A stretch of DNA of 64,000 bases from positions 14,336,001 to 14,400,000 of the forward strand of contig CP068257.2 of NCBI GenBank assembly GCA_009914755.4. The letters are read 5' to 3'. The DNA comes from the human T2T-CHM13v2.0 reference genome, Homo sapiens. The translations under genes and the position numbers were made by a program. The notes beneath the pieces were generated by a model. It had not been told where the DNA came from. It searched no databases and was given only the letters and a program-made list of their open reading frames with translations. Below, piece by piece: positions 1 to 64,000 of the stretch (position 1 is its first letter; every line of letters starts with the position of its first letter).

Positions 1-409
1 GAAAGGTGAATAGGAGTATGACTAGACAGAAGATAGTAGGGATGACAAGTTTTTTTTTGGGGGGCTCAGTCCAAGTTGGTCTGGTGTCTGGAATGAGACT
101 GGGGCCTAATAAAAAGGAGCGTCTATACAGGAGCTCAAATGGGCTGTACCTTGTAGCATTCTGAGGACAGGCCTGAATTCTGAGAAGGGCAAGTGGTAAA
201 AGTATTGTCCAGTCTCTTTTAATTGATGGCTGAGCATGGTGAGGTGTGTTTTAAAAAGACCATTAGTTTACTGAATACTAAGAACCTGAGAAACTACTTG
301 GGTGATTTGACTAATAAAGGCCGGTCTGCTATCGGACTGTATAGAGGTGGGAAGGCCAAACTGAGGAATTATGTCTGACAGAAGGGAAGAAATGACCGTG
401 GTGGCCTTC

Positions 410-646
410 TCAGACCCTGTGGGAAAGGCCTCTACCTATCCAGTGAAAGTGTCTACCTAGACCAAGAGGTATTTTAGTTTCCTGACTCAGGGCATGTTGA
501 GTAAAGCTAATTTGCCAGTCCTGGGCAGGGGCAAATCCCCGAGCTTGATGTGTAGGGAAGGGAGGGGGCCTGAATAATCCCTGAAGAGTAGTAGAATAGC
601 AGATAGAACACTGAGAAGTTATTTCCTTGAGGATAGATTTACACAA
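410..646 (-). pseudogene. Remnant of the integrase N-terminal/catalytic-core entry, part of ERV pol. Not an intact gene.
   Basis: The ORF translation …PAQDWQISFTQHALSQETKIPLGLG… matches the gammaretroviral IN motif (P)GxHWEIDFTE. Confidence 0.6.
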
Positions 647-1453
647 TGGAAAGGAAATGAGAGGTTATAAGAGGCGGGCTAGTGGCTTGTACTATAGCAT
701 AGCCTACCTTTGCTGGTGTGTGGCAATTAGGCCTGGTGGAACTGCCATCAATAAACCAAGTGTGATCAGGGTGAGGAACAGGAAAGAAGGAAATATGGGA
801 AAATGGGGGTGAATGTCAGATGTATCAGAGAGATACAGTCAGGAGGGTCAGGTGTGGTATCAGGAATAATGTGGGAGGCTGGATTGAAGTCTGGGCCAGG
901 AACAATGGTAATTGTGGGAGACTCAACAAAGAGTGAGTACAGCTGAAGGAGTCGGGGAGCAGAAAGTATATGTGTGAGGTGTGAGGAAGAAAACAGATTT
1001 TGGAAGTTATGAGAACTGTAGAGAGTGAGTTGAGCATAGTTTGTGATTTTGAGGGACTCTAAAAGTATTAGGGCAGCGGCGGCTGCCGCACGCAGACTTG
1101 AGGGCTAGGCTAAAACAGTAAGGTCAAGTTGTTTGGATAAAAAGGCTACAGGGCACGGTCCCAGTCCTTGTGTAAGAGTTCTGACTGCATAGCCCTGCAC
1201 TTCGGCTGTGGGTAATGAAAAGGGTTGGGATGAGTCAGGGAGAGCTGGGGTGGGGGCAGTCTCTAAAGCTGTCTTCAAGGAATGGAAAGAGAAGTGGGGA
1301 AAGGAATTAGGATCTATGGGGTCAGCTAGGTTTCCTTTTGTGAGTTTATATAATGGTTTTGTTAGGATGGCAAAACCAGATATCTAAAGTATCCAACCAC
1401 GCCTAGGAAGGAAAGGAGTTGTTGTTTTTTAGAAGGTGTTGGGGTTTGAGAGA

Positions 1454-2019
1454 TCAGTGGGACATGATCGGCAGGGAGAGCACGTGTGTTTTTATGAGAA
1501 TTATGCTGAGATAGGTAACAGATAAGGAAGAAATTTGGGCTTGACTGAAGTAATGGGAGCTGTCTGTGAAGCCTTGTGGCAGTACAGCCCAGGTAATTTG
1601 CTGAGCCTGATGGGTGTCAGGGTCAGTCCAAGTGAAAGCGAAGAGAGGCTGGGATGAAGGGTGCAAAGGAATAGTAAAGAAAGCATGTTTGAGATCCAGA
1701 ACAGAATAATGGGTTGTGGAGGGAGGTATTGAGGATAGGAGAGTATATGGGTTTGGCACCATTGGGTGGATAGGCAAAACAATTTGGTTGATAAGTTGCA
1801 GATCCTGAACTAACCTGTAAGCCTTGTCTGGATTTAGAACAGTAAAATAGGGGAATTGTAAGGGGAGTTTACAGGCTTTAAAAGGCCATGCTGTAGCAGG
1901 CGAGTGATAACAGTCTTTAATCCTTTTAAAGCATGGTGTGGGATGGGATATTGGTATTGAGTGGGGTAAGGGTGATTAGGTTTTAATGGGATGGTAAGGG
2001 GTGCATCATTTGTCACCAA
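1454..2019 (-). pseudogene. Remnant of the reverse transcriptase fingers/palm region of ERV pol. Frameshifted; YXDD box not intact.
   Basis: ORFs 1834..2019 (PLKPNHPYPTQYQYPIPHHALKGLKTVITRLLQHGLLKPVNSPYNSPILL) and 1454..1777 (VLDLKHAFFTIPLHPSSQPLFAFTW…QITWAVLPQGFTDSSHYFSQA) are classic gamma-like RT blocks. Confidence 0.8.
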
Positions 2020-2207
2020 GGAGGGAGTAGAGGTGTCCTATACTTATGGGTTAAGGTGGGGAGATAGAAGGGGATGATGTGAAGGAGGCTTTGAACTGGG
2101 GGAAAAGGCAGCAATGAGGTGTGGCTGTAGCCCAGGAATAGTCAGGGAAGCAGATAATTTAGTTGAAGTGTCTCGGCCTAATAAGGGAACTGGGCAGGTG
2201 GGGATAA

Positions 2208-2396
2208 TTAAAAGGAGTGCTTAAAAGAGTATTGTCTAAGTTGGCACCAAAGTTGGGGAGTTTTAAGAGGTTTAGAAGCCTGGCCGTCAATACCTACAAC
2301 AGTTATGGAGGCAAGGGAAACAGGCCCTTGAAAAGAAGGTAATGTGGAGTGGGTAGCCTCCGTATTGATTAAGAAGGGGACGGACTTACCTTCCAC
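2208..2396 (-). pseudogene. Remnant of the retroviral aspartic protease.
   Basis: ORF contains LINTEATHSTL, aligning to the LLDTGAxxSVL active-site loop with D->E/N degeneration. Confidence 0.6.
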
Positions 2397-2609
2397 TGTG
2401 AGAGTTACCTAGAGCATCTGTGATGGTCCTGTAGGCTTCTGAGGCAATCAGGCAGTGTCAGTCTTCAGCTGCTAAGCTGAGAAGATCAGGGAAGGAGTCA
2501 GTCAGAGAGCCTTGGGCCAGAGTTCCAGGGGCTCTGGAAGTGGCTGCCAGGTGAGTTGAACAGTCTGATTTTCAGTGGGGTCCTGCACAGATGGGACACA
2601 GCTTGGGAG

Positions 2610-2700
2610 GAATCCTGGGCTGTGGGCATTCCTTGGCCCAGTGGCCAGATTTCTGGCACTTGTAGCAAGCTCCTGGGGGAGGAGGTTCTGGAGGAACCCC
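2610..2700 (-). other. gag nucleocapsid CCHC zinc knuckle (CX2CX4HX4C) followed by a second Cys-His box. Coordinates are approximate.
   Basis: The reverse complement of ~2618-2700 reads CYKCQKSGHWAKECPQPRIPPKLCPICAGPHW. This lies in a different frame from the listed ORF, consistent with frameshifts. Confidence 0.65.
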
Positions 2701-3699
2701 TGGAAGCTGTGGTTCAGGCGTTTGGAGTTCTTGTGTGCTGGAGATGTGGCTGGGGTTTGTCTCACAGTGGAGGCAAGGAATTACAACTCAGAAATACATT
2801 GCTACTTGGCTGCCTCTACTCTATTATTGTACACCTTGAAGGGAGGTTAATTAACTCTTGTTGTGGGGTTTGAGGGCTGGAATTTAATTTTTGGAGTTTT
2901 ATTTAATGTCGGGAGCAGATTGGGTAATAAAATGTGTATTAAGAATAAGACGGCCTTTTGACCTTTTAGGGTCTAGGGCTGTAAAGTGTCTCAGGGTTGC
3001 TGCCAAACGAGTCATGAACTGGGCTGGATTTTTATATTTTATGAAAAAGAGCCTAAATGCTATCTGATTTGGGATAAAGAAAAAGGAGCATTAACCTTGA
3101 CTATGCCTTTAGCTCCAGCCACCTTCTTAAGAGGAAATTGCTGGGCAGGTCGGGGAGGGCTAGTCTCGGAACGAAACTGTAAGCCAGACCGGTGTGAGGA
3201 GGGGAGGTGATAAAAGGATTATAGGGTAGGGGAGCGGAGGCTGAGGAAGAATTGGGACCTAGCTCAGCCTGGCGAGGAGCAGCCTGGGGAGGAGGGGAGA
3301 GGTCAGATGGGTCTGTAGAAAAGGAAGACTGGAAAGAGGAAAGACTCAGCGACGCTTGGGGTTGGGACTGAGGGGACAGATGGGAGGGAAAGAAGGAAAA
3401 TTTGGACAAGTTGCATTGGGAACAGAGACTAGGGAGGGACCCATGTGTAAAAGAATGCCTGGACATCAGGCACCTCAGACCAGACCGTTTGCCTATTTTA
3501 TGACAAGAATTATTTAGATCTTATAGGATGGAAAAATCAAAAATGCCATTTTCTGGCTATTTGGAACCACTGTCGAGTTTGTACTGGGGTCAGGCAGCAT
3601 TGCAGAAGAAAATAAGGCGTTTAGGTTTTAGGTCAGGTGTGAGTTGAAGAGGTTTTAAGTCTTTGAGAACACAGGCTAAGGGAGAAGGAGGAATGGAGG

Positions 3700-3960
3700 G
3701 TGGAAGGTTGCCTATAGTGAAGAAGGCAAGTCCAGAGAAAAGAGAGGGTAGAGACATGGAGAGAAGGGGTGGGAGGTGCTTGCCCCCCAGGAAAGTGGAG
3801 AAGGGGTAGAGACATGGAGAGAAAGGGTTGAGGGGTTCTTGCACCCTAGAAAAGCGGTACTTGCCGCAAAGGGTGAAGGACCAAGGCAGGCGTCCCGGCG
3901 TGGTCAGACACCTTTGAAATGTGGGTGAATGATCAGGCAGGCATCCCTGCGTGATTAAAC
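3700..3960. repeat. Tandem sub-repeats in the ERV pre-gag leader: two ~55-bp units of the form ggtagagacatggagagaa(g/a)gggt…gg, then a duplicated caggcaggc(g/a)tccc(g/t)gcgtg motif. CpGs are retained.
   Basis: Direct repeat units visible at 3741-3795 and 3803-3855, and again at 3885-3950. Confidence 0.7.
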
Positions 3961-4294
3961 ACAAAGGAAAGACTGTCTTCCCGAGTCTGTGAATGGTGCT
4001 GGAGTTTTGGGTCCACAGATAAAACGCATCTCCTGTCTTTACGAGAAAAGGAAAGAAACTGAAATTAAGAGAAGGGAGAGATTGAAGTGTGGCGCCAAGA
4101 TTGAAAGGAGAAAGAGATTGAGGGATAGTGAGAGAGGATGGAGAAGAGAGTAAAAAGAGGCCACTTACCTGATTTAAAATTGGTGTGATGTTCCTTGGAC
4201 TGGTTGGTCTGAGGACCCGAGGTCATAGGTGGATCTTTCTCATGGAGCAAAGAGCAGGAGGACAGGGGATTGATCTCCCAAGGGAGGTCCCCCA

Positions 4295-11140: not shown

Positions 11141-11560
11141 TCATACATAATGTGATTAATATTAATATATAAAAAATCATATAACATATCATGATATATA
11201 TTAATATATTTTATTATATATTTATATATCATTATATATTACTATATAATAAATCATAGTATATGTAATAAAAAATTATATATTATGTATTATATAATAT
11301 AGTATATATTATAAATCATATAATATATGTAATTATACATATAGAGTATAGATGTTAATATATGATATATATACTGTATATAATTATATACATACTATGT
11401 ACATACTCTATATTATAATTATATATAGTATATATGTTTATATATGATATTATATCATAATATATACCAAATATGATACTACATAAATACTATACATTAT
11501 TGTAGTATAGAGTATATATAATATATATATCATAATATATACTATATGATTTATTATAAG
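11141..11560. repeat. ~420 bp TA-rich complex low-complexity block, (TA)n/(TATAA)n-like, rich in short palindromes.
   Basis: Almost pure A/T, with recurring tatata, atataat and tatgat motifs. Confidence 0.9.
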
Positions 11561-17890: not shown

Positions 17891-20711
17891 GAGGTTCACA
17901 CTGTAATAGTATGTGGCAAAATCAATTAACTGGTACTAAAACAGCTTTTTAAAAATGAAATAGAAGGGAAATAGGAGGATAATACCAGATTATCTACTGT
18001 ATGTAATAAGAACAGACATTTTTTAAATGAAACATTATGAATCTGTTGTGTGTGTGTTTATATATATGATACTAAATGAATTTTTTACTGGGAGTCATAG
18101 TAAAAAGTTAAAAAACCACTGGATTAATGAGTGTTAAGGACTTGATAAAATTGTACAGAATTATTTCAAGTAACATATTTTAAAAACTGAACAGAGCATA
18201 AGCCATAAGCCAGGGCTTATGACTGTTTTCCCTATGGTGATTATTTGTTTTAAAATTTTTGTGGTAGCAGAATTTGGCCCTGTTAACATTTACTATAATG
18301 TTCATTCATATTAAATATATTCAGGTTGGAATGGATTTACTTCACAGAACAATCTGGCCCTCAGGAAAAAGGTGAAATGAGGGGAATTTTTTTTTTTTTT
18401 AAATATTCATACCCAGGATCCCAGACAGCTTTCTCTTTTGGGATTTGCCTTACGCCTTCCTATCCAGTATACTCTTCCACATAAGATTTATCTTAAAAGT
18501 CATTTTCCTCAAGAAACATTTTCTTACCAATAATTCATGTACCAACTTACTAATAACACACTTAACATAAAAAGGACAGATGTGGTCTTCTATTAATAAA
18601 ATGAGAGACTTGCCTGCTCTTGTTTTGGGATTAAATGTTTTATTATTTCTTTTTTTTCAATCATTCTTTTACAGTAATTGTGTGGGAACAAAAGTGATAA
18701 TGATTTGTAAAATTCTTATTTATATTTAAGAAATCCATTTCAGAGTTCTGTCTGAAGTAAAAAGAGTAAAAGCTCCACATGCCAAATAATTACTTGGTTA
18801 TTTTTAAGCTAGTATAGAGATTAATCAAGAAGTTACTGGGAACTTACTGTTTGAAATTTATAGATGTGTATTCCCCATTTGCCCTGGTCGACCATTCCCA
18901 TTCGCTACCAACCTTATAAATCCTTTGAATATGTACTCGCAATGAATAAACATAATGAATTATTACTCTGGGGGTACTCAAAAAATTTTGTTGGGAAAAT
19001 GGACTTCTTGTGCCAAGACTCAATCAGTGTTAGCAGAAACCACAGAGAGACACAGAATATTTGAGTTTAAATGGCCTCAGAGATCTTAACTTAGGGATTT
19101 GGACTTTGTGACCAACAGCTCACAGGTTCAGGGCCTATCCACGGCCATGGACTCAGAGGAAGAGTGGTCCTCAAACCCAGGACTTCTGAGTTCAGTTAAG
19201 GACTAGTTCTAATAACAGTTGTTTCAGATCTCCCGAAATACTCTCAAACAGGCTGTGATAATGTACCCCCAAGATAAGAGCACAGCCAGGTGTGGCTAGC
19301 CACAAACACAACTATGTAGACAAATATTCTACCACGAAAGTTTATACAAATGTGCACATACTTAATGGTGTTTCTAGATACTTTCAATTACATAAGATTA
19401 GCTAAATCTTAGATGCCAGGAAAGTGGATTGTAATTTTTTTCTGACTTAGTGAACCCCCAGACACATGACTGCGTAACTCTGTGAGTGTGTATACGCAGC
19501 ACCCATTGGTAACTTAACCTCCTGGTGTTGAGAAAGAACAGGCAGAAAATGGGTCATCTCCCTTTATTGCAAGATGATACTTATTAGGTATAGTACTTAA
19601 AATGGAACATCCATTTTAATGAGTGTCTAATCCTGATAATCTTGTAATATGTGATGCTCTTAAACTTGTGCTGGATCATGTTACACCAAATTAAATTTTT
19701 AACTGGTTCAGTATACTTTTAAAAGTATATTTAATTCATACTTTACCTTCTACCTATTTTTCAGTTGCTATATTCTCACTCTCTCTTGATTTCGGGGAAC
19801 CAAAACATATTTGTATGATTTTCTGAATCTCTAATAAACTCTACTTTGGGCGAACACATCTATCAAAAGAGATGCCCTTTCAAGATTGTATTGACTTGCA
19901 ACTATCTGTAGCAAGCTTTGTTTGTAAATCATCACTAACCTTTTTCATGTTTTAATTTTTTATGAACTGTTTTTAGTGTCCCTCTAGGATTTCAAATATT
20001 GCAGGAGAACAAATGAGTTATGATGTGATTCTCCGGGCTAAGAAACAAAACATACTTTTCAAGGTTCTGTCTAAAGTGTACTCTTAAGCCAAATCGTAAG
20101 AACCTGAGTCTTTTAAAAATGTTTCCAAAACTAAGTACTCACAAAATGTGCTGTACTTGTCCTATCTTAGCACTTGTCACACTTTATTGTACAGGTTTCA
20201 TAATAGTGAGTGTCTTGTAAGAAACTTTACAACCTATGACCTTACCAGGAGCATGTTTTTCCACTCTACCATTTGCACCTAATATAATACCAAGCACATT
20301 ACAGGTATAAGACAAATGTTTTTAGGTTAATGAGAAGTGGTTTGACTGTTGATAAGATTTTACTTAATATTGTGTGTATTGTTTGTGACATAACCATTAT
20401 TTGAGAAGCAGCATATTTAGTAATTAAAGACAATAACAATATACGTGCATTTTTTTAGATTTCTTATTGCATTACTTAAAAAGCTCTGAAAATATATGGT
20501 GTCCAAAGCACATAGCTAGCTCTACTATCAGGTGGATCACTGCTCAACAAATACCCTGAATAGGTAAGATCTTCTAGGACCCTTACTGATACCAGTGGGA
20601 CATGCACTTAAGAATACATACAACATTGATTTCATATATGGTATTCAAATTTACATCTCTAAAAATGAAAATATATTTTCTTACTACTTAATGTTAAAAT
20701 TTATGGTAGAT

Positions 20712-22303: not shown

Positions 22304-24120
22304 TTAACTTTAATATGTAAGTGAAACATCATGTTAAATTTTATAAGAAAACAGCTAATAGAACAGAAACAATGTTTATATACCAAAGCATAAAGAGAAA
22401 AAAAAAAACCTTGGATTTTCAATGAAGTGATTTAATAACTATTTAGTTAAAGATGCAAAATTAAAGTACTGACAGTAGAGGGCAGGGTATCCCTGATGCT
22501 GTGCTGATAATTTCTTGAAATTGCAGAGTATCTCATGTTATCCCTAAAGTCATATATTTCATGTATTGAGCCAGATATTAAAGATTTTATGTTTAAAAAA
22601 TACTGATAACACAATTTACTTTTTATTAAAAACAGAGATCTTGATATGATCTGTGTAATATGAAGACCTAGCTTCTAGACAGGAAATGGTATATTTATTT
22701 TCATTCTCTGGATTTAGAAAATTTATTGAGTTTTGCTGATACATTTTGAGAGTCATTTTTTTTTTGCATTGAAAACAATTTTGAAGTCTCTTGGTTAAAA
22801 AAGAAAAAAGAAAAAAAGTAACTATACAACAGGATAGTGACCATCCCAATATCCAATCTCTAAATAATGGCCAATATTATTTCTGGATGTGATTCTTTAG
22901 CTATATGCTTTCCGATCCTATAAATAACTTTTAAAATCCTTCTTTGATTCTGAATCCCTTACAACATCTTTGTGGTTTAGTGCAGACAAAACTGGATCTT
23001 ATATCCTGTTTTAAGCAACTGTGTTAACATATACGAAACACTCAAATGCTTGTTTCTTTGTGAATAAATAAGATGTTTTATGTTGCCGCCCTCTTTATGT
23101 TAATTATTCTAATTAAATTGTCAAAGTACAGAGTGTAACTGGACTTTAACATTTTATTAATTAGTCACTTAGGAGAGCCTAGGTTATTCTGCTATTAGTC
23201 ACTGATATTTAAGTCACTTGTTATTACTGGATAACACTGATATCATTGATACTTAAGTGACTTAAAATACCAGTGACTTACAGCAACAATATTTTATTTC
23301 TCATTCTGCTACACGGTCCTCTGGGTTGATCCTAGTGTGATTCCACGTTGTCTTCACTCTGGACTCCAGCTCATGGAGCAGTGTTTCTCTGCAATATTCT
23401 AATCTCATAGAACAGGAGTAAAAAGAAAGTGCCAGACTACATAGTGGCTCTTAAAATTTCTGTTTGCTGGTGACATGTGTCACTTCTGCCCACTTTTCAC
23501 AAGTCATACGACCAAGGCTGATATTAGTCAGTGAGGGAGTATAATCCTTCCTGAAAGCTGGGCTGTAAACACTTGCCAAAAGTAACGCCATCTACTACAG
23601 TATCTTTATGATATTTCTGAGAAATCGAGCCAAAATTTTAGTCAACCGGTTGGTGTAAACTACTTATACAGATGTTCTGTACATATTATTATTGTTTAGT
23701 CTTCAGTCCCTGAGGATTCTGACGAAAGTGCTCTAGGAATCTAGTACATTAAGTCCTGACTTAATACTGTTAATAGGCTCTTGGAAACTGACTGAGTGAA
23801 AAGATGAATGAATGGGGAAACCAATCTTCCCACAGGCTACTTGGTATAAACAAGAGTTAAGTTCCTACAGCATATTTTGATCACAAAAACATCAGCAAAC
23901 TTCTAACTAAAGACTAAAACACTTCTAATTTTAAATATTATAATAAATGTGAGCAATGTATACATTTAAGAAAGAGTGATAAAAACAAGTAAGACAATTA
24001 TTTACCCATTTATTTCAGTTCAGGGTTGTGGGTGTCCAAAACCTATGCAGACAGCTTAGAGCACAAGACAGGAACCAACCCTAGACGGGATGCCATCCCA
24101 TCAAAGGGCACACTGACATA

Positions 24121-24144
24121 AACACACACACACACACACACGCA
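24121..24144. repeat. (AC)n microsatellite, about 10 units.
   Basis: acacacacacacacacacacgc. Confidence 0.9.
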
Positions 24145-24388
24145 GACTGGGACCATGTAGGCATCCCAATTCACCCAACATGCACAGCGTTGAGGCGTGG
24201 GAGAACACTGGAGAACGGGGAGAAAACTCATGCAGACATGAGGAGAACGTGCGAACTCCATTCAGACAGTGGCCCCAGCTGGGAATCAGTTTTCTTCTCA
24301 TCAACATTATAACAACATGATTTTATTTGAGGACCTGCTGTGGACTGTATATTTTATTTAGGAATGACTATATCTTATGTTGGTGATT

Positions 24389-24688
<300 letters not shown>

Positions 24689-25862
24689 TATGTTGGTGAT
24701 TATTAATGGTAAGGAAAAATTTTAGAAGGTCCTGAAAAATGAAATAATGCTATGATAATGAGTTTACTTTGCTTTTTCACAAGGATGGGATGGCAAAGAG
24801 AGCTCCTGGTCTCTCCTTCATTCTGTTTCTGGTGGAAGGGATTATAGATCTATGAAGGAGAGAGGGAACAAAGAAAACAAAGATTTTTTTTCCTTGTTAG
24901 AATCAACTGTAGGTCTTAGAAGACTACTTTCGTGAATATAGTGTTTTAAATTTACAAAATAATTTATGATTTTTTTTCATAAAACTTTTAGACTAAGGCT
25001 GGTAAGCTAACAGGTGATATGATTGCCATTTTCCTGTGGAGGATTCAGATTTAGAAATAATTAGCTCAGGTAATGAATATTGTAAAGACTGAGAATTTAA
25101 ATTTTGTGACTTTTTTTTTCTTTTACCCATAGATTATGTAGCTTTTCAATTATTGTAGAAGTCTTAACGTTATCTTTAGTCATGCTGTGTTCCTAGATGT
25201 GACTCTCAAATAAATTCTGGTGAAAACTATTATTTAAAAAATGAAATGACTGACCTAACATATTGATTATTTTTCAACTCTGCTTTATAACTGTAAGAAA
25301 AACTAGATATGACTAAAATATCTTTCCCTAATATTTGAATTTTAAACAACTTAAAGCATGTATAGCTATCTTGTCCATTATTATTATACTTGTGAGACAA
25401 ATTTGCAAAGTAACAATATTTTTGAAATTAAGAAAAAATATAGATCATAGGACTTGTTAAACTAGATATTTCTGTATTAAAAAGAGCTCAAAGTCAGCTC
25501 CTTTTTTCCCCTTTCATTTTAGAAGGCTGAATACTGATCAAATTTCAGGTCTACAGATATACTCTGAAATAAGGTTATTAAATTCACATCCTGCTAGGGG
25601 AGCTACCTACCTTGTTTATGCCCCCTGGGCATCCAGATTTTTTTGTTCACTAAATCATGACAAGTAACAATTCACATTACCTAATCAGTTTCTTTAGAAT
25701 AGGACCATATAGACAGCCAAAATAATATTTGAGAATTAGTGAGCCTGCCCACACTGTAGAAAGAGAACCGTATTTATTTTATTTTCTCTTATTGTATGGC
25801 AGTTTAATTATTAAAGGCATGGTATTGAGTTTGAATCTTGGTTTATTGCCTTTTAGATCAGG

Positions 25863-25979
25863 GGTTGGCAGACCATAGTCTGCCAACCAATTATTGGTTG
25901 GTCAGTCATTTCATTTTTTAAATAATAGTTTTCATTTTAAATAATGAAAACTATTATTTAAAAAATGAAATGACTGACC
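25863..25979. repeat. Cluster of three palindromes. There is an 11-bp-arm inverted repeat (ggttggcagac cata gtctgccaacc). There is a near-palindrome (ccaaccaattattggttgg). There is also a perfect 37-bp-arm inverted repeat with a 6-bp spacer: ggtcagtcatttcattttttaaataatagttttcatt | ttaaat | aatgaaaactattatttaaaaaatgaaatgactgacc.
   Basis: Arm complementarity checked by hand, base by base. The right arm belongs to a 45-bp segment (25945-25989) identical to 25221-25265. Confidence 0.9.
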
Positions 25980-27104
25980 TAACATATTGGCCCCACCAAT
26001 GATTTTCGCAACACAGCTGTGTTTTTTGTGTAAGTATTGTCTATAGATGCATTTTCTCTATGCAGCAACAGAGTTGAGCAGTTGTGATGGAGACCTTAAG
26101 GCTGGCAAGGCCAAAATATTCACTCTCTGGCCTTTCAAGAAAAAATTTACTGATCCCTATTCTAGGCGGATGACTTTGCCCAAGTTATTTAAGTTTCTTT
26201 GCCTCATCTTCTAATTATAAAATGCTAATGATAGTCTCTACTAAGTTGGGTTTGTGTGAAGATTAAATGATTTACTTTATACAAAAAATTAGCATAGTGA
26301 TAGATTGGAAATAAGTGCATCATAAAGACTAGTTATTGATGAAACTATCATCTTATCAAGAAATATAGACTGGCATGTATTTCCTTGTCACTGGAGGAAA
26401 TATAAGGAACTGGTAAAAGCTCTTATAAGAGAATGAATCTTTGGTGATATTTCATCAAGAATCTGGATTCTTTTGTGCTGAATCTCTTTTCTGGGTTCCA
26501 CGGAATTCTAGCCTCTTGCAAGCCTGCTCTGGAGTGCCCCTTCTTGTAGCAGGCCCTTTCTTGTTATCTGTGGGGCTATCTCCATGTCTACATCTGGAAT
26601 TGCTCAAAGGTCACTGAAGTATTGAAACTTTATTAATGGATTTGTTCCCCTCCAAATTGCTTTCCACAATGCCTGCAGCCAGGAGCTTATAGCTGGGGCA
26701 TGGCTTTTCTGTCTGATTTTGGAGACCTCACTGCTTTGCCCTTTATTTACCTTCTCAGTGAGGAACAAAAAGGTTTCATTCTGTTTGCTATTAGACATGA
26801 AGAGTTTTCATGAGTTAACAAGTTCTTTATTGGGCAAATGTATTTCAGTCCAGCATGTTTAAACATTACAGATGGGAGCAAATTTTAGGGCTTTCTGATT
26901 TACAATACTATGTTCAATATCAGGTAAATTGCAAAATATGTGAAGACTTATTTCTTTAGCTTTGTGATTGCCAATATTCTTAAGATTGTTTTTCAGATTA
27001 CAAGTAAAATATGTAAATTTTAGAAATTTTAACAAATATAGAGAAAGAAAAGTCTGCTTTAAGCCTTTTCCTCAATTGTGGCACTTTCTGTCTTGTGTTC
27101 TCTT

Positions 27105-27134
27105 CACACACACACACAGACACACACACACACA
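27105..27134. repeat. (CA)n microsatellite, interrupted.
   Basis: cacacacacacagacacacacacacac. Confidence 0.9.
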
Positions 27135-27686
27135 ATTGTACTTTATATAGTAATATATCATATCATTGATATGCTTTATTGTGTCTTGTATCATGTTTAA
27201 CTTGATACAGTCCCAGGCATAGTTTCCTATATGATTAATTTTTGCAACATAGGATTTCAGTCTGTAGAAGTACCACAATTTATTTAAACAGTTCATATTC
27301 CAAACTTAGGAAGAGAGTAAATTGTTACAACTTTTCTAAAGGTTAATCTGTTAATATAATGTGAAATTTTTAATTTAGAGTCTCTTAGACATAGAAAATT
27401 GCATTTCTAGGAATTTATCCTAGGGAAACTAATAGGAAAACCTCACCTAAATACAGGTATTGAAATGCTCACATTAGAGTGTATAAGAGTGAAAATAGTT
27501 TTGTGGGCTCAATGTCCACGAGTAGAAGATTGTGTAACTACTTTATGGTGCACGCTTCCAATGGAATGCAGTCTGGTTAAAAGTGAAGGAGTTCATTTTT
27601 CTTTATGTACATTAAAATGCTTTATGCTGTTTTAAGTGAAATAGAGCAAATGAAATGAAAAGAATAGTTTAACAGATCTTAGTTTG

Positions 27687-27689
<3 letters not shown>

Positions 27690-27719
<30 letters not shown>
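27690..27719. repeat. (AC)n microsatellite, about 14 units.
   Basis: acacacacacacacacacacacacacacat. Confidence 0.9.
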
Positions 27720-27721
<2 letters not shown>

Positions 27722-52995: not shown

Positions 52996-55902
52996 ATCCT
53001 ATTGCCCCCTTTTGTCACAAAGTTGACTTTCTTTGTGATCTGAGACTGTATGACATAAAACAACAGATTGACCCTTTAGTTACAAAAAGTTAAGTAATTC
53101 ATTATTCATTGTCTTGGAAAGAGTGAAGATCATTTGAATCTGCAAGGATGGTATGAAATTGCTTGGTTTATTAATGTAAATTGAATTGAGATTTAATTTT
53201 GGTTGTTTCCTTGAGAAAGCAGAAAAATGGTTTTCCTACTAAATGAGTATTTCCTACTAAGTGAGGGAAATTTAGATTGGATCACGTGTGCCTAACATGG
53301 GCTGTTAAATGAGGAACACCTAGAGCTTTGAGAAATATACTGTGAAATGTTAGGATTTTTTTTTTTTTTTTTGAAATTTCACTTGACCGAGATATGGGGC
53401 CTGGGGAGAGTATAAGGAAAGGGCTGTGTCCTCTCCTAGAATGAATTAACTAGGAGTGGGTCACGGAGCTGTTTCTGGACATAGTGCAGTCCATGTTATT
53501 GTCTGATATTCAGATTATTCACAGTAATTTTTTTTAATTAATAACCTTCTTAACTATATATAATTTTTTATCCTTTCCTTCCTATACACACAACACCTAA
53601 TATGGTGTTCCACTTTTCCTTTTCCCCATATAATTGGACAAAACCACGTTGCCTCTGATTCTTCAATATTGGGTGAAATTCAGTCCTCCAATTTTACTCC
53701 AGGTTTGGAAGGACGAGAGACAGGAATCCAGTTTCAAGGGACTAAATGCAGGGCCGACCAAAGCCTCGGAGGCCCTCCCTCTATTAAGTATCTTCTCTGT
53801 TACCCAGTTCTCCAGCAGTTAACTGGTTAACTTGTTAAGATGTAAATCTAAAAGAATCCCTGGGAAAATGGAACAGTGGGAATCTAGGGTTCTAAAATTT
53901 GTATTAGCAAAGGGTCTAAAACTCCTTTGTTTACATTGTCTTAATTATTAAAGAATCCAATAGCATTAAACAGCTTGAGAGAATGTTTGCCCAGGGGAAG
54001 TCTATATTTTTGGCAAGCAATAAAATGTTGAATATAAATGAAAGCTATCCTGAATCCTGGCATATGTGTCTCTACTATGTTATTTGCTTCCAGATTTTTT
54101 CCAAATGGATACTTTTAAACATATTTATCAGAATACTAAACTTATGCATCTCATTTTTTAAATATGTCTTAAAATTTTCCCCTTAGTTGCTAGGGTCTTC
54201 ATAATTATTATTAAATATAATCAATTTTCCAAGAAACACTCTCCAGTTTTGTACTGCCTAAACAACCTTGCATTGTGATCTTTTCTCCTTTTGAATGTAT
54301 TTTCTTGGACTACATTTCCAGAAATAGAATTACTGAATAAATGGTTTGGAAATATTTACAGCTCATAATATGAAATGCCAAAGTTTTTCAAAAAAGAGTT
54401 TAAAACAATTTCTATCTCATAATATAGTATGTATATCAGTTTTGGTTATACTCCACTATTATGCATTACATTTAATTATACTTTCTTTAGTCTTTGTATT
54501 TTACTGTCCCACTTCCAGACTCAAAGAAGATCATAGCCTCCTGGAGAACTAGGAGAGTGTATTTATTACTTTTGTATTTATTTACTTCTCTATAACATTA
54601 GAACAAGGACTAACACATACTAAGTAAACATTAAATGTTTGTTGCATTGATTTGAATTAATCACGGGAATTCTTTTTGCAGTTACAGTAACTGCCAAATT
54701 ACTTCATGTTTTGGTGAATTACTTTATTATGATTTTAGCTTTTTTTCATTAACTGAGACTCGTGTTCCTCTTTTTAGTGCTTTTTTGTTTTTAATGAAAT
54801 GCTTCATGATTTTCTGTGTCATCCTTAAAAGAGGACATGTTTATTTTCTCTGGATTGTGCCAATTTTAAGATATTTTCTGCCAAAGCATGCATCATTTAA
54901 TTTAATTTTACTCTTTCAGTAAGCAATTATATGACTGAGTTTACAGTTAGTATTTGAGATACAATTGAGGTTAAACATTTTTAATGTGTGTTTATTAAAA
55001 TGATATTCTTTATTTAGTGAGTTGTTTGCTCTTGAGTTTGCCCATTTGAATCTGGAGTTTTATTTGTAAAATAATTATAATTAAATTTTAAACTTTTCCT
55101 ATTACATTTTGCTCTAGATGTTTTTTAGCTTTTTTCAATTTTTGTTTATGGCTAAAATTCAGAAATTTCAAAATTTTATAGTCTCATTTGTTTTGAGGGG
55201 AGCAGATACCTCTTTCTCTTAGATAGTTCAAAGGTTATTGACTACTACTTAGCACTGCCACAATAGGCTAAATGTCCAGTTTTATTCTATTTGAGGCATT
55301 CTGGATATTATTAATGCTTTGTATCATGATATATTGCACTTTTAGAGTGTATTTAGGGATGGGATATTATTAGTTTGAGTAGTCCGCTTAGATTTTTTTT
55401 AAACTGGGAAAACAATTATCTATTCATATATTAATTAAAAACATTTTATTTTGATGTATGGGTCAGTTTTTAGTTTTTTCTACTTTTCAATATGATGTAA
55501 TATGTTGATTTTTGTACCATACTCTTTCACCTATTGATTGTTCAGCATATATTTTAATATTTGCTAAGCCTAGTTTCTCCCTTGTTTGAGACTATTCTGA
55601 AATATTTTTTATTAATTAATTATCCAAATAAAATTTGTCACCTGAAGGCTATAGTCCAAAAAAGAGCTTATAATTTTATTTGGGATTTTATTAAACGTTC
55701 ATATTACTTTGGGAAGGTCCAAAATTATATATGACTGTTTTTCCATCCAGGAGCATGATTATGTGTTTCTACTTATTAGAGAATAAATTTCTTTCCAATA
55801 AAGCTTTATAATTTTTGTAAAGTATGTCCTATATCTCTCATCTATGTTTTCAAGTTAAGATTGCCACTTTAATTACTATTGTGATGAGATACTTTTTAAA
55901 TT

Positions 55903-61581: not shown

Positions 61582-64000
61582 CTCTTATTTTAAAATAATT
61601 TCCTAACAAGAGAGCTTTTGTAAATACCAGCCTAAATTGTTATTAATGAGACTTTCTTATTTCCAAAAGCCTTCTGAAGAATGTTGTGGTGGTCATGGAT
61701 TCACAGGTCTCCATTTATAGAAAGCAGAGCTAACTAAGGCACGCAAAATGTGTTGCCATGTTTAGGATGAGGCCACACTTCCTATGTGTTGCTCCCAGCC
61801 AATGACTGAGCACAACAAGTCTACTAAGTCAGTCAGCTTCCCTGGAGAAAGGGGACTCTTTGATGGCCATTTTGCTTGAATTCTCCATTCTTAATCTGTG
61901 GTTGCTTTTTTCTCTTTTAGCTTACTATGGAAATGGAAAAGAACTGCTGCTTTGAAAGTTGATATTTAAGTAATTGGGAAAAATTTGAGAACATTTATCT
62001 TTGAAATCCTTTGAAACTATATTATCTAAGGATTTAGTGTTTTTATTTTTGTCAGTAAGTAAGGTCTATGTTTATGTTTTGGTGGGGAAATGCAGTAACA
62101 AGCAGACAGAAAATAACCCTTAATATTCCTCATTCTGAGTTACTGGCACAAGTAAATATTTCACATGCCATCCCTTTCATATAGATATATTAATTTGTGA
62201 GCTATATTAATTCTTGTTATGGTTAACATGACCCTATTTTCTCACCACTTCTGTCAAATTAATAAATATACCTGAAATTTAAATATTGTTCCCTCTATGT
62301 ATTACAGGTTTTTCCCATGATAGTGGGGTTGGAGGGTAAAAATAACCTGTCCTTATCTTTTAGCTAACCCAGGCACAACAGGAATACAACCTTTTACTAC
62401 AGATGTGGGATTGTTCATGTCATCTACTAATGCAAGGTACACAGCTTTTTGACGGCGTTGTTCTAAAAGCAGCTATTTCTATAGCTTTAAATTACATGCT
62501 TAAATTTATATTTTGCAACCTATTAATGTCAGAAGTAAGATAGTATTAATTTCCTCTACGGAATTCTAGATAATTAGCACACTTATATTTCCTCTTATCT
62601 TCCCCTCCTTCCTTCAATGTCATAAATTTTGTTAACATGCTTTAAAATTTGTGCCTCAGTTCGTCTAATTAAAATTATTATTTACCAACTGACTTTTATA
62701 TAGCATATGTCATTCAGTTATGTGAATATTGGCATTTTATATTATAATCATTTTAAATTTTTACCTTTAAAAATTAATTCAATACCTGGTTGCCACTGTA
62801 AATATTTCTTTTTATCACATGGTGAGGCAGACATAAAACATAAGGCATAAGAAATAGGTCATAGCTATTGAGAAGTATCTGCAATAAGTAGTTGATAAGG
62901 GGAACAGAGCTATGGGACCAGGCATGGGGTATATTAGAATTCTCCAAAGAAACAAACAAATAGGAGATACATATATTGAGAGATTTATTATGGGAATTGG
63001 TTCCTGTGATTGCATAGTCCAAGAAATCTCCAAAACTGTTGTTTGCAAGCTGGAGACCAGGAAAGCAGTGGTATAATTCAATCTCACACCAAAAGGCCAA
63101 GAACCAGGGGAGCAGATGGTATAAATCCCAGTTACAGTATGAAGGCCTGACAACCAGGTGGAGAGAAGTGGATGCTGGTGTAAATCCTGGAGTCTGAATT
63201 CCCAAAAACCAGGAGATTCAATGTCGGAGTTTAGGAGAAGATATATGTCCTAGTTCAAGGAGTGACAGGGAGAGAAAGAAAGAAAAAATAGAGAGAGAAT
63301 TCACCCATCTTCTGCCTTTTGTTCTAGTTAGGTCCTCAACAAATTGGATGATGTCTGGCTACATTGGAGAGAGTGGATTCTCTTTACTCGGTGCTAATGC
63401 TAAGCCCTTCCACAAACATCCTAACAGACTGACCCAAGAATAATGTCTTAGCCGTTACTTGAGCATCCCTCAGTGCAGTCTGAAAGATGTGTACCCCCTC
63501 CACACCTGCCAAACCCTTGGAAGGTTGGTGGGAAGGCTGGATGACTGTCTCTCCCAGGTCCTATGTAACATTCTTGTTTTATTCCTCCGAGTTTGTGAGG
63601 GGTATTAGCGGAATTTGATAAAATTATCTCCACTTATTTACCATAAAATTAAAGTACGTTCTTGCGAAAAGGAGTTGTGTTGCAGCTTATGTTTTGTCAG
63701 TTGGATTCAAATTGTGTTGTATCCGATAATTTTTTTTTAAGTTTGTGACATGTGGTTTTAATATTATACTTTCCTAAATCCAGGATTGAAGGAGTTTCCC
63801 TTTCTCTTCTAGCTTCTATTTGATCTTTTTGGTTCATTTTTAGCGTAGAGTTTGTAAGTCGGGTTCTTACATTTCTCTTATTCCCAGAATTTCATTTCAT
63901 GAATTGCGTGGACAACTTTCTGAAACTTTTGTAGCATGACATGTCTGGATAATGACTTAACTTACCTCAAATATCTTATTGGTGTTCTTATTTTATAATG

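What the first reader, a model, noticed from the sequence alone, without database searches (positions are those of the whole stretch)
25221..25989. Perfect 37-bp-arm palindrome fused to a 45-bp direct duplication from 720 bp upstream
25900-25936 and 25943-25979 are exact reverse complements with a 6-bp spacer. The right arm and the following 8 bp (25945-25989) are identical to 25221-25265, copied in direct orientation about 720 bp downstream. Two smaller palindromes, with 11-bp and ~9-bp arms, sit immediately upstream at 25863-25908. Perfect arm identity implies either a very recent event or strong homogenisation. The arrangement fits template switching or fork-stalling repair (FoSTeS/MMBIR-type) that produced an inverted and a direct duplication of the same 45-mer. 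Perfect AT-rich palindromes are cruciform-prone and can be polymorphic or unstable, as with PATRR-type breakpoints.
Basis: seen in the sequence. Interest (0 to 1): 0.55.

Follow-up and report, generated by a model that had tools for sequence, protein, structure and literature searches.

The report
Template-switch hairpin inside an old transposon
A perfect 37-bp-arm hairpin and a 45-bp copy 724 bp upstream are real, but they look like ordinary scars of DNA-copying errors (template switching) inside an ancient, dead MER58-type transposon in human DNA, not a new mobile element or a PATRR-like fragile site.

Summary
Arms 25900-25936 and 25943-25979 are exact reverse complements with a 6-nt spacer. 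25945-25989 is identical to 25221-25265. Two smaller perfect hairpins (11- and 9-nt arms) abut on the left.

The window is human. The hairpins lie inside a roughly 26%-diverged hAT-type MITE (MER58-like, 25859-26159, 8-bp target duplication). I defined the family empirically from 39 copies in host-contaminated metagenome contigs plus an intact copy at 28930-29169. No family member has a perfect hairpin arm longer than 10 nt, so the structure is private to this copy.

The left arm fits the family consensus in register and restores a full-length element (p<0.001 against composition-matched random arms). Most likely the left arm is native MITE sequence, the right arm is an inverted copy made by replication or repair template switching, and the upstream 45-mer is a secondary templated copy. 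The opposite direction is not excluded: the upstream copy as source of a 93-bp insertion flanked by TATTGG.

Zero mismatches over 82 nt only bounds the age to under about 18-37 My. At 80 bp the palindrome is far below PATRR size. Orthologues and population data could not be reached. This is an ordinary, if multi-step, example of a known mutational process.

The parts
25851..25858 (.). Left 8-bp target-site duplication of the host MITE (TTTTAGAT)
   Evidence: Matches 26160-26167 TTCTAGGC at 5/8, with all three differences transitions. Family flanks show the hAT target preference TCTAGA.
25859..26159 (+). Host element: old hAT-type MITE (MER58-like), 301 bp now and about 230 bp without the inserted block
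   Evidence: nhmmer with an HMM of 39 family copies hits 25852-25891 (HMM 9-48, E=0.004) and 26008-26168 (HMM 87-248, E=6.5e-25). Identity to the empirical 223-bp consensus is about 74-77%.
25863..25888 (.). Small perfect palindrome P1: GGTTGGCAGAC cata GTCTGCCAACC. The left arm is part of the MITE terminal repeat.
   Evidence: The right arm occupies the place of consensus GCCCGTGGGCC and matches it at only 5/11 by my own count against the consensus, versus about 74% for the element.
25883..25901 (.). Small perfect palindrome P2: CCAACCAAT t ATTGGTTGG. It overlaps P1 by 6 nt and the large palindrome by 2 nt.
25900..25936 (+). Left arm of the large palindrome; most likely native MITE sequence (consensus positions about 35-71) in its native place and orientation
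   Evidence: Keeping it and removing 25937-26007 gives a 230-bp element scoring 69/58.5/77 against the consensus, like the intact neighbour copy (74/69/76). Random GC-matched 37-mers in its place reach that score in 1/1500, 0/1500 and 0/1500 trials. Against the single intact copy the test is weaker: p=0.025-0.26.
25937..25942 (.). 6-nt spacer TTAAAT (hairpin loop)
   Evidence: Origin not established. The 11-mer TTTTAAATAAT (25935-25945) repeats 25916-25926, but the same 11-mer also occurs at 62748-62758 and an overlapping 11-mer at 32649-32659.
25943..25979 (+). Right arm: exact reverse complement of the left arm; inferred inverted copy
   Evidence: 37/37 complementary. The minus-strand reading of 25943-26007 is collinear with consensus 25-71, p_emp=0.001.
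25980..25994 (+). 15 nt beyond the right arm (TAACATATTGGCCCC); possibly the inverted copy of the ancestral left flank. The first 10 nt are shared with the upstream 45-mer.
   Evidence: Substituting its reverse complement for the present left flank raises the fit to consensus from 69 to 77 and from 77 to 83, p=0.02-0.03 against random 15-mers. Suggestive only.
25995..26007 (+). 13 nt (ACCAATGATTTTC) with no identified template
   Evidence: No other match in the window at up to 3 mismatches, and none by blastn-short. TTTTC (26003-26007) repeats 25929-25933 and is a possible return microhomology.
25221..25265 (+). Upstream 45-mer, identical to 25945-25989; inferred secondary templated insertion copied from the right arm and its flank (or the source, under the rival model)
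   Evidence: 45/45 identity with abrupt ends. Flanks are unrelated to the MITE (no hit) and to the flanks of the other copies (best p=0.08).
25945..25989 (+). Twin of the upstream 45-mer (35 nt of the right arm plus 10 nt of flank)
25892..25897 (+). TATTGG, repeated directly at 25985-25990. The pair brackets a 93-bp block and is the junction microhomology under the rival model.
   Evidence: Read directly from the sequence.

Best explanation
This is a scar of short-range template switching during DNA replication or break repair, inside one old copy of a MER58-type hAT MITE in human DNA.

Shown:
- The MITE (25859-26159) is ancient, about 26% diverged from its consensus, with a decayed 8-bp target duplication.
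- It carries 71-74 extra nt where relatives have none.
- The palindrome is private to this copy.

Inferred order of events:
(1) The left arm (25900-25936) is the MITE's own internal sequence.
(2) A nascent strand left its template just after this segment and copied it backwards from the complementary strand. That made the inverted right arm (25943-25979, probably originally about 52 nt, to 25994). About 13 untraceable nt were added, and synthesis returned to the MITE at 26008.
(3) Further small switches of the quasi-palindrome-correction type made the two perfect mini-hairpins in the left flank and broke the outer symmetry.
(4) A 45-nt piece of the right arm plus flank was used as template for an insertion 724 bp upstream (25221-25265).

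These steps may belong to one multi-switch episode or to several. The hairpin has no demonstrated function. The stated confidence refers to this specific direction and order. The mechanism class alone I hold at about 0.85.
For: - Repeats are real and non-random.
- The host MITE is defined empirically. There are 72 contigs with the family motif, a 223-bp consensus from 39 of them with hAT-type TCTAGA flanks, and split HMM hits at 25852-25891 and 26008-26168, plus an intact copy at 28930-29169.
- The palindrome is private: the longest perfect hairpin arm in the 39 relatives is 10 nt or less (median 6), the intact neighbour has 6, and this copy has 37.
- The left arm looks native. Reconstruction R2 scores 69/58.5/77 against 52/48.5/49 for R1 and 74/69/76 for the intact copy. 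Random GC-matched arms equal R2 in 1/1500 trials or fewer. The 45-mer alone against the consensus gives p=0.004-0.014. R1's supposedly native 17 nt fit no better than random filler.
- Copy edges are sharp, with no residual flank homology.
- Literature: template switching creates perfect hairpins in one step, and tens of thousands of such events occurred on the primate lineage. Reported fragments are 28 to 83 nt, multi-switch cases are noted (PMC10710096), and events are enriched at AT-rich/poly(dA:dT) sequence (PMC7954356).
Against: - 13-18 nt (25990/25995-26007) and the 6-nt spacer have no identified template.
- This order needs at least two break or switch sites (the MITE and 25220/25221), whereas the rival needs one.
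- The consensus was built from copies fished with a 20-mer that lies inside the tested segment. Against the one unselected copy the test is weak (p=0.025-0.26).
- No orthologue or second assembly of the locus could be obtained, so the ancestral state is inferred, not observed.
Confidence: 0.55

Rival explanations
1. Same mechanism, opposite direction. The upstream 45-mer (25221-25265) is native. One complex event inserted 93 bp (25898-25990) into the MITE at TATTGG. The insert consists of TT, then the reverse complement of upstream positions 25221-25255, then a 10-nt centre, then a direct copy of 25221-25265, with return through the TATTG(G) microhomology.
For: Every inserted base can be given a template, with a short overlap at each junction: ATTGG (5 nt), GG (2), TTTCA (5), T or AAT (1-3), TATTGG (5-6). 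This is read. Only one break site is needed. The insertion point lies in the MITE's own quasi-palindrome GGGCCAAATCTGGCCC (consensus). Both arms end at the same source base.
Against: The inserted arm would have to resemble, by chance and in register, exactly the consensus segment the MITE would otherwise lack (1/1500 or fewer; p=0.004-0.014 for the 45-mer alone). It also requires an independent deletion of about 16 nt in the MITE. The 17 nt it treats as native fit the consensus no better than random sequence. Both arms share 2 nt (TT/AA) that are absent from the upstream context, so one arm must still have been copied from the other.
Confidence: 0.27
2. The 80-90-bp palindrome is itself a small multi-copy MITE (TIR ggtcagtcatttc...) that inserted into the MER58 element, with a solo half-copy upstream.
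For: Palindromic MITEs of this size exist in humans (for example MADE1; from my own knowledge). The structure is AT-rich and symmetric.
Against: - No further copy exists in the 64-kb window or in 182 kb of mostly mammalian contigs.
- Exact 28-34-mers are absent from three public collections, and the single 22-mer hit is a chance match in a bacterial MAG with no extension. The power of these scans is low.
- There is no target-site duplication at the arm ends.
- The arm ends differ (TTGG against TTAGG) while the interior is perfect, the reverse of what terminal repeats show.
- The upstream copy shares 10 nt beyond the symmetric arm.
- The arm aligns to internal MER58 sequence.
Confidence: 0.04
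3. The three copies are old and are kept identical by ongoing gene conversion or hairpin-directed correction.
For: There is perfect identity inside an otherwise 26%-diverged element. Quasi-palindrome correction is a known process (PMC5453318).
Against: Identity ends abruptly, and the flanks show no residual similarity, so there is no older, longer homology to sustain conversion. Tracts of 35-45 nt are far below the homology length normally needed for mammalian homologous recombination (from my own knowledge). Perfect identity over 82 nt needs no homogenisation for up to about 18-37 My.
Confidence: 0.03
4. It is an assembly or sequencing artefact (a fold-back chimera) at an AT-rich site.
For: Fold-back artefacts exist in some library types. 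I could not obtain an independent assembly of this locus.
Against: An 80-bp hairpin is easily spanned by any read type. The structure includes a separate 45-bp copy 724 bp away and two chained mini-hairpins, which a single chimeric read would not produce. Elsewhere the window agrees verbatim with independent human-derived contigs (131-aa ORF).
Confidence: 0.03
5. The hairpin is a functional, selected element, such as a young microRNA or hairpin-RNA gene.
For: Template-switch-born hairpins have given rise to at least 18 human miRNA genes (PMC10710096). A relaxed Rfam search gives hairpin-type hits.
Against: All Rfam hits are far below gathering scores (best is mir-944 at 49.5 against 100), occur on both strands, and span unrelated plant and animal families, so they are generic hairpin matches. 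No hit passed at gathering threshold. A 37-bp perfect stem is atypical for pre-miRNAs (from my own knowledge). There is no expression or conservation evidence.
Confidence: 0.03

Closest known systems
Short-range template-switch mutations (Ripley quasi-palindrome correction; four-point model of Loytynoja & Goldman, PMC5453318; Walker et al., PMC7954356; Monttinen et al., PMC10710096)
   Same: A reverse-complement copy of adjacent sequence creates a perfect hairpin in one step. The fragment length (37-52 nt) lies within the reported range (28 to 83 nt). The setting is AT-rich and poly(dA:dT). Clustered changes make small inverted repeats perfect.
   Different: A single switch-and-return does not explain everything. 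There are three chained hairpins, 13-18 untemplated nt, and a direct 45-nt copy 724 bp away. The four-point model explicitly does not cover multi-switch or longer-range events.
FoSTeS / MMBIR complex rearrangements
   Same: Serial template switches with short junction homologies give mixed direct and inverted duplications of nearby sequence.
   Different: The scale differs: tens of bp here, against kb-Mb copy-number changes in the described disease cases. The junction microhomologies depend on which reconstruction is assumed.
Palindromic AT-rich repeats (PATRR11, 17, 22, 8)
   Same: An AT-rich (about 22% GC), near-perfect palindrome predicted to form a hairpin or cruciform.
   Different: This one is 80 bp with a 6-nt spacer, against about 190-600 bp (PMC1851657). 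No evidence of breakage or translocation exists. It belongs to a size class with about 180,000 members in the human genome (PMC7999016).
MER58 (DNA/hAT-Charlie) non-autonomous elements
   Same: The host element has CAGGGG...CCCCTG-type termini, an 8-bp target duplication at a TCTAGA-like site, and a length of about 223 bp. It gives significant HMM matches to 39 relatives.
   Different: The palindrome and the upstream 45-mer are not part of the family architecture. The name MER58 is my recollection. The family itself was defined empirically here, without Dfam or Repbase.

Membership tests
hAT-type MITE family (MER58-like), host element | Significant sequence match to family members over the element | tested here: met
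   nhmmer E=6.5e-25 (26008-26168) and E=0.004 (25852-25891). Identity to the empirical consensus is 74-77%.
hAT-type MITE family (MER58-like), host element | Terminal inverted repeats CAGGGG.../...CCCCTG and an 8-bp target-site duplication | tested here: met
   CAGGGGTTGGCAGAC at 25859 and the decayed end ...GATCCCTA at 26159. The duplication is TTTTAGAT / TTCTAGGC, 5/8 identical with 3 transitions.
hAT-type MITE family (MER58-like), host element | Identity with the curated MER58 consensus (Dfam/Repbase) | not testable with these tools
   No repeat library is available. The name comes from memory. PMC3088541 lists MER58A as DNA/hAT-Charlie.
Template-switch mutation (four-point model) | A fragment that is the exact reverse complement of nearby sequence on the same locus | tested here: met
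   37/37 complementary arms 6 nt apart.
Template-switch mutation (four-point model) | One switch-and-return explains the whole difference from the ancestral sequence | tested here: not met
   34 of the 71 inserted nt are not the reverse complement of the present upstream sequence. Extra hairpins and a distant direct copy also exist.
Template-switch mutation (four-point model) | Ancestral state without the repeat seen in an outgroup | not testable with these tools
   No primate genomes are available. All attempts to reach other copies of the locus failed.
FoSTeS/MMBIR | Microhomology at each breakpoint junction | tested here: inconclusive
   TATTGG (6 nt) brackets a 93-bp block and TTTTC (5 nt) brackets a 74-bp block. 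Which pair is a true junction depends on the reconstruction.
PATRR | Palindrome of several hundred bp (about 190-600 bp), nearly spacer-free | tested here: not met
   80 bp in total with a 6-nt spacer, compared with the sizes in PMC1851657.
PATRR | Recurrent translocation breakpoint or size polymorphism in the population | not testable with these tools
   No population or breakpoint data are available.
Autonomous palindromic MITE with these arms as TIRs | Multiple dispersed copies | tested here: not met
   There are only the three linked copies in the window. There are none in 182 kb of fetched contigs or in exact-match scans. Power is low without a human genome search.
Autonomous palindromic MITE with these arms as TIRs | Target-site duplication flanking the terminal repeats | tested here: not met
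   The flanks of the arms are TT and TA. The arm ends diverge (TTGG against TTAGG).
Known RNA families (miRNA precursors) | Score at or above the Rfam gathering threshold | tested here: not met
   No hit at gathering threshold. The best relaxed hit is mir-944 at 49.5 bits against 100, on both strands.

The most novel reading that the evidence does not exclude
The locus records a multi-step cascade in which one template-switch-born hairpin provoked further switches nearby: two chained mini-hairpins and a 45-nt templated copy 724 bp away. If so, new hairpins would seed local mutational hotspots. The 37-bp perfect stem, if it lies in a transcribed intron, might also be processed into small RNAs as a very young hairpin-RNA locus, possibly polymorphic in humans.
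Probability: 0.06. Interest if true: 0.45.

Novelty: new member of a known kind. Interest (0 to 1): 0.22.

Why it matters
It matters little for function. It is a clear worked example of how perfect hairpins arise de novo inside decayed transposons by template switching, and of a multi-switch case that the standard four-point model does not capture. It also shows that perfect identity over a few dozen bases says little about age. If primate alignments confirm the order of events, the locus could serve as a test case for tools that aim to detect multi-step or longer-range template-switch mutations.

Tried and rejected
1. My first model took the upstream 45-mer as source of a 93-bp insertion flanked by TATTGG. 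I downgraded it after the consensus-fit tests and kept it as the main rival.

2. I considered that the upstream 45-mer sits in a second, inverted, degenerate MER58 copy, which would imply ectopic repair between two MITEs. nhmmer finds no family signal there, and flank comparisons are null.

3. I tested for older, longer homology among the three copies. None is significant (best p=0.08).

4. I looked for a template for 25980-26007 or 25990-26007 elsewhere in the window and found none.

5. I considered the 11-nt centre repeat as evidence of re-copying. The same or an overlapping 11-mer recurs by chance at two other loci, so I did not use it.

6. I took the reverse-complement match of the right flank to consensus 23-36 as evidence of direction. 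It is confounded by the consensus's own internal palindrome GGGCCAAATCTGGCCC, and it is informative only once the left arm is assumed native (p=0.02-0.03).

7. I tried to reach independent or orthologous copies of the locus:
   - Exact-pattern scans of metagenome, genome and viral collections for the flank and the core gave 0 hits, apart from one chance 22-mer hit.
   - Six exact ORF look-ups near the site gave none on record.
   - One homology search with all reading-frame segments of 24996-26614 concatenated gave 0 hits.
   - The only success was a 131-aa ORF 4.6 kb away, found in four short human-derived contigs.

8. One literature search (MER58 / hAT / MITE) was badly posed and returned mite biology.

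9. A Pfam scan of two minus-strand ORFs in the G-skewed first 4 kb gave no hits.
Full report
**Observation.** 25900-25936 and 25943-25979 are exact reverse complements (37/37) separated by TTAAAT. 25945-25989 is identical to 25221-25265 (45/45). The inverted copy shares exactly 35 nt with the upstream copy. The 35-nt core occurs three times in the window and nowhere else, against 0 expected in shuffles. Two corrections apply: the 45-mer twin begins 2 nt inside the right arm and extends 10 nt (not 8) beyond it.

The two small palindromes are perfect. They lie at 25863-25873/25878-25888 (11-nt arms) and 25883-25891/25893-25901 (9-nt arms). They are chained: the first overlaps the second by 6 nt, and the second overlaps the large palindrome by 2 nt. 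The 64 kb holds only about seven other perfect hairpins with arms of at least 9 nt, and simulated sequence gives 0.13 per window with arms of at least 11 nt. Three in 117 bp is therefore not chance. As single-stranded DNA the region folds at -52.9 kcal/mol, z = -14.

**Context.** The window is human. A full Alu lies at 24400-24690. A 131-aa ORF at 30515-30910 is found verbatim in four contigs from human-associated samples. The palindromes lie just inside a hAT-type MITE. It starts with CAGGGGTTGGCAGAC at 25859 and ends with the decayed ...GATCCCTA at 26159. It is flanked by TTTTAGAT and TTCTAGGC, which match at 5/8 with three transitions.

I recognised the element from memory as MER58-like, and treated that as a lead rather than a test. 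A 20-mer I recalled from that family retrieved 72 metagenome contigs, most of them short and low-coverage. About 50 of them carry clear relatives. Thirty-nine gave an empirical 223-bp consensus, CAGGGG...CCCCTG, with the hAT target preference TCTAGA on both flanks. An HMM of these copies finds an intact copy at 28930-29169 (E=2e-35). It also finds the element at the finding split in two: 25852-25891 (HMM 9-48) and 26008-26168 (HMM 87-248). That leaves 116 nt where the family has 38. MER58A is listed as DNA/hAT-Charlie in carnivore introns (PMC3088541), which fits an old eutherian family.

**Is the palindrome a family feature or a transposon of its own?** It is neither. The longest perfect hairpin arm in the 39 relatives is 10 nt (median 6), the intact neighbour has 6, and this copy has 37. 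The 45-mer and the 95-bp palindrome have no match in the 182 kb of fetched contigs. Exact 28-34-mers are absent from the viral, genome and metagenome collections. A 22-mer gave one hit, in a Bdellovibrionales MAG, where identity stops exactly at the searched 22 nt, so it is a chance match. These scans have low power for human DNA.

The anatomy also argues against a transposon. The arms have no target duplication. Their outer ends differ while the interior is perfect. The upstream copy shares 10 nt beyond the symmetric arm.

**Which copy is the source?** My first reconstruction (R1) took the upstream 45-mer as native and removed a 93-bp block (25898-25990) bracketed by TATTGG. A global alignment to the consensus preferred a different arrangement, so I compared models formally. 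Keeping the left arm and removing 25937-26007 (R2) gives a 230-bp element. R2 scores 69/58.5/77 under three gap schemes, R1 scores 52/48.5/49, and the intact neighbour copy scores 74/69/76.

The 45-mer alone matches the consensus segment that the split element lacks, with p=0.004-0.014 under composition-matched nulls. When random GC-matched 37-mers are placed where the left arm sits, they reach the real score in 1/1500, 0/1500 and 0/1500 trials (z=3.5-4.3). R1's supposedly native 17 nt do no better than random filler.

The consensus came from copies selected with a motif that lies inside this segment. I therefore repeated the test against the unselected intact copy. The effect has the same sign but is weaker: p=0.044, 0.26 and 0.025.

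The flanks of the three copies share no significant residual similarity, and the upstream copy lies in sequence with no family signal. Together this favours the left arm as native MITE sequence, the right arm as its inverted copy, and the upstream 45-mer as a later or concurrent templated copy of the right arm plus 10 nt of flank.

Substituting the reverse complement of the 15 nt beyond the right arm for the present left flank improves the fit to consensus (69 to 77 and 77 to 83; p=0.02-0.03). This suggests the inverted copy originally spanned about 52 nt, and that the left flank was then remodelled by the events that made the two small perfect hairpins. The right arm of the first small hairpin matches the consensus at only 5/11 positions (my own count).

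**What stays unexplained.** The 13-18 nt before the MITE resumes (25990/25995-26007) and the 6-nt spacer have no template in the window. The rival order has real merits. It treats the upstream copy as the source and posits one 93-bp insertion at TATTGG. It accounts for every inserted base with a short overlap at each junction and needs only one break. I therefore give the favoured order 0.55 and the rival 0.27. Both are the same mechanism.

**Mechanism and known parallels.** Template switching during replication or repair copies nearby sequence in reverse complement and creates perfect hairpins in a single event (PMC5453318). On the primate lineage to human, 53,666 putative events were found in genic regions. 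Of these, 31,007 formed new stems. Reported fragments are 28 to 83 nt long, and cases needing multiple switches were noted as outside the model (PMC10710096). Events are enriched at AT-rich and poly(dA:dT) sequence (PMC7954356), as here. The present case is a multi-step example with an additional direct copy 724 bp away. It resembles FoSTeS/MMBIR in logic but is orders of magnitude smaller.

**Age and stability.** There are no differences over 37 + 45 compared positions, and none of those positions is CpG. At 0.5-1.0e-9 substitutions per site per year, this gives a 95% upper bound of 18-37 My. The event is much younger than the MITE, whose Jukes-Cantor distance from consensus is about 0.3. It need not be human-specific, polymorphic or homogenised.

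PATRRs are about 190-600 bp (PMC1851657), and this palindrome is 80 bp with a 6-nt spacer. The human genome contains about 180,000 near-perfect palindromes longer than 40 bp and only 718 longer than 200 bp (PMC7999016). Nothing here suggests unusual fragility.

**Function.** Rfam at gathering thresholds finds nothing at the site. A relaxed search gives only generic hairpin matches on both strands to unrelated miRNA families, all far below their thresholds. There is no evidence of function.

**Limits.** No orthologue, second assembly or population data could be reached. The direction, age, polymorphism and artefact questions therefore rest on inference from one sequence. They can be settled quickly with primate alignments, a Dfam search and pangenome data.

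**Verdict.** The direction is probably reversed, and the recency and PATRR implications are not supported. This is an ordinary but neatly legible instance of a known mutational process, and its interest is low.

Noticed in passing
window 28930-29169 (+): An intact second copy of the same hAT MITE family (nhmmer E=2e-35) lies 3 kb downstream in the same orientation. I used it as an unselected comparator.
   Followed up: yes
L001-L072 (metagenome contigs): A 20-mer typical of a mammalian MITE retrieved 72 'metagenome' contigs. About 50 carry clear copies of the element at low coverage. Host (mammalian) DNA is therefore present in these metagenome assemblies, and ORFs called on it enter protein collections.
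   Followed up: partly
window 30515-30910 (-); L074-L077: A 131-aa ORF in non-coding-looking human DNA is recorded verbatim as a 'gene' in four contigs, including human gut and bile metagenomes. These are probably spurious gene calls on host contamination.
   Followed up: partly
window 54788-54889 (-): A U6 snRNA match above the Rfam gathering score (50.5 against 44 bits, full length). It is a U6 gene copy or pseudogene.
   Followed up: no
window 1-4000: A GC-richer stretch (0.46-0.49) has strong G over C skew (+0.36 to +0.42). It carries Pro/Ser-rich ORFs of 121 and 124 aa on the minus strand. I suspected a retroelement, but Pfam gave no hit.
   Followed up: partly
window 11194-11558 and 28500-28704: AT-rich micro- and minisatellite arrays. 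The second includes 3.5 copies of a 34-bp unit at 97% identity.
   Followed up: no
window 39010-39036, 42462-42483, 19597-19619: Other perfect short palindromes (12-nt arms with a 3-nt spacer; 11-nt arms with no spacer; 10-nt arms with a 3-nt spacer). They may be further small template-switch products.
   Followed up: no
window 24043-24261, 27072-27296, 27679-27873: ORF translations with runs of CVCVCV indicate (TG)n/(CA)n microsatellites flanking the region.
   Followed up: no
L073 4791-4812: There is an exact 22-nt match of the repeat core in a Bdellovibrionales MAG, with no identity beyond the searched 22-mer. It shows that AT-rich 22-mers can hit by chance in a 596-Gb collection.
   Followed up: yes
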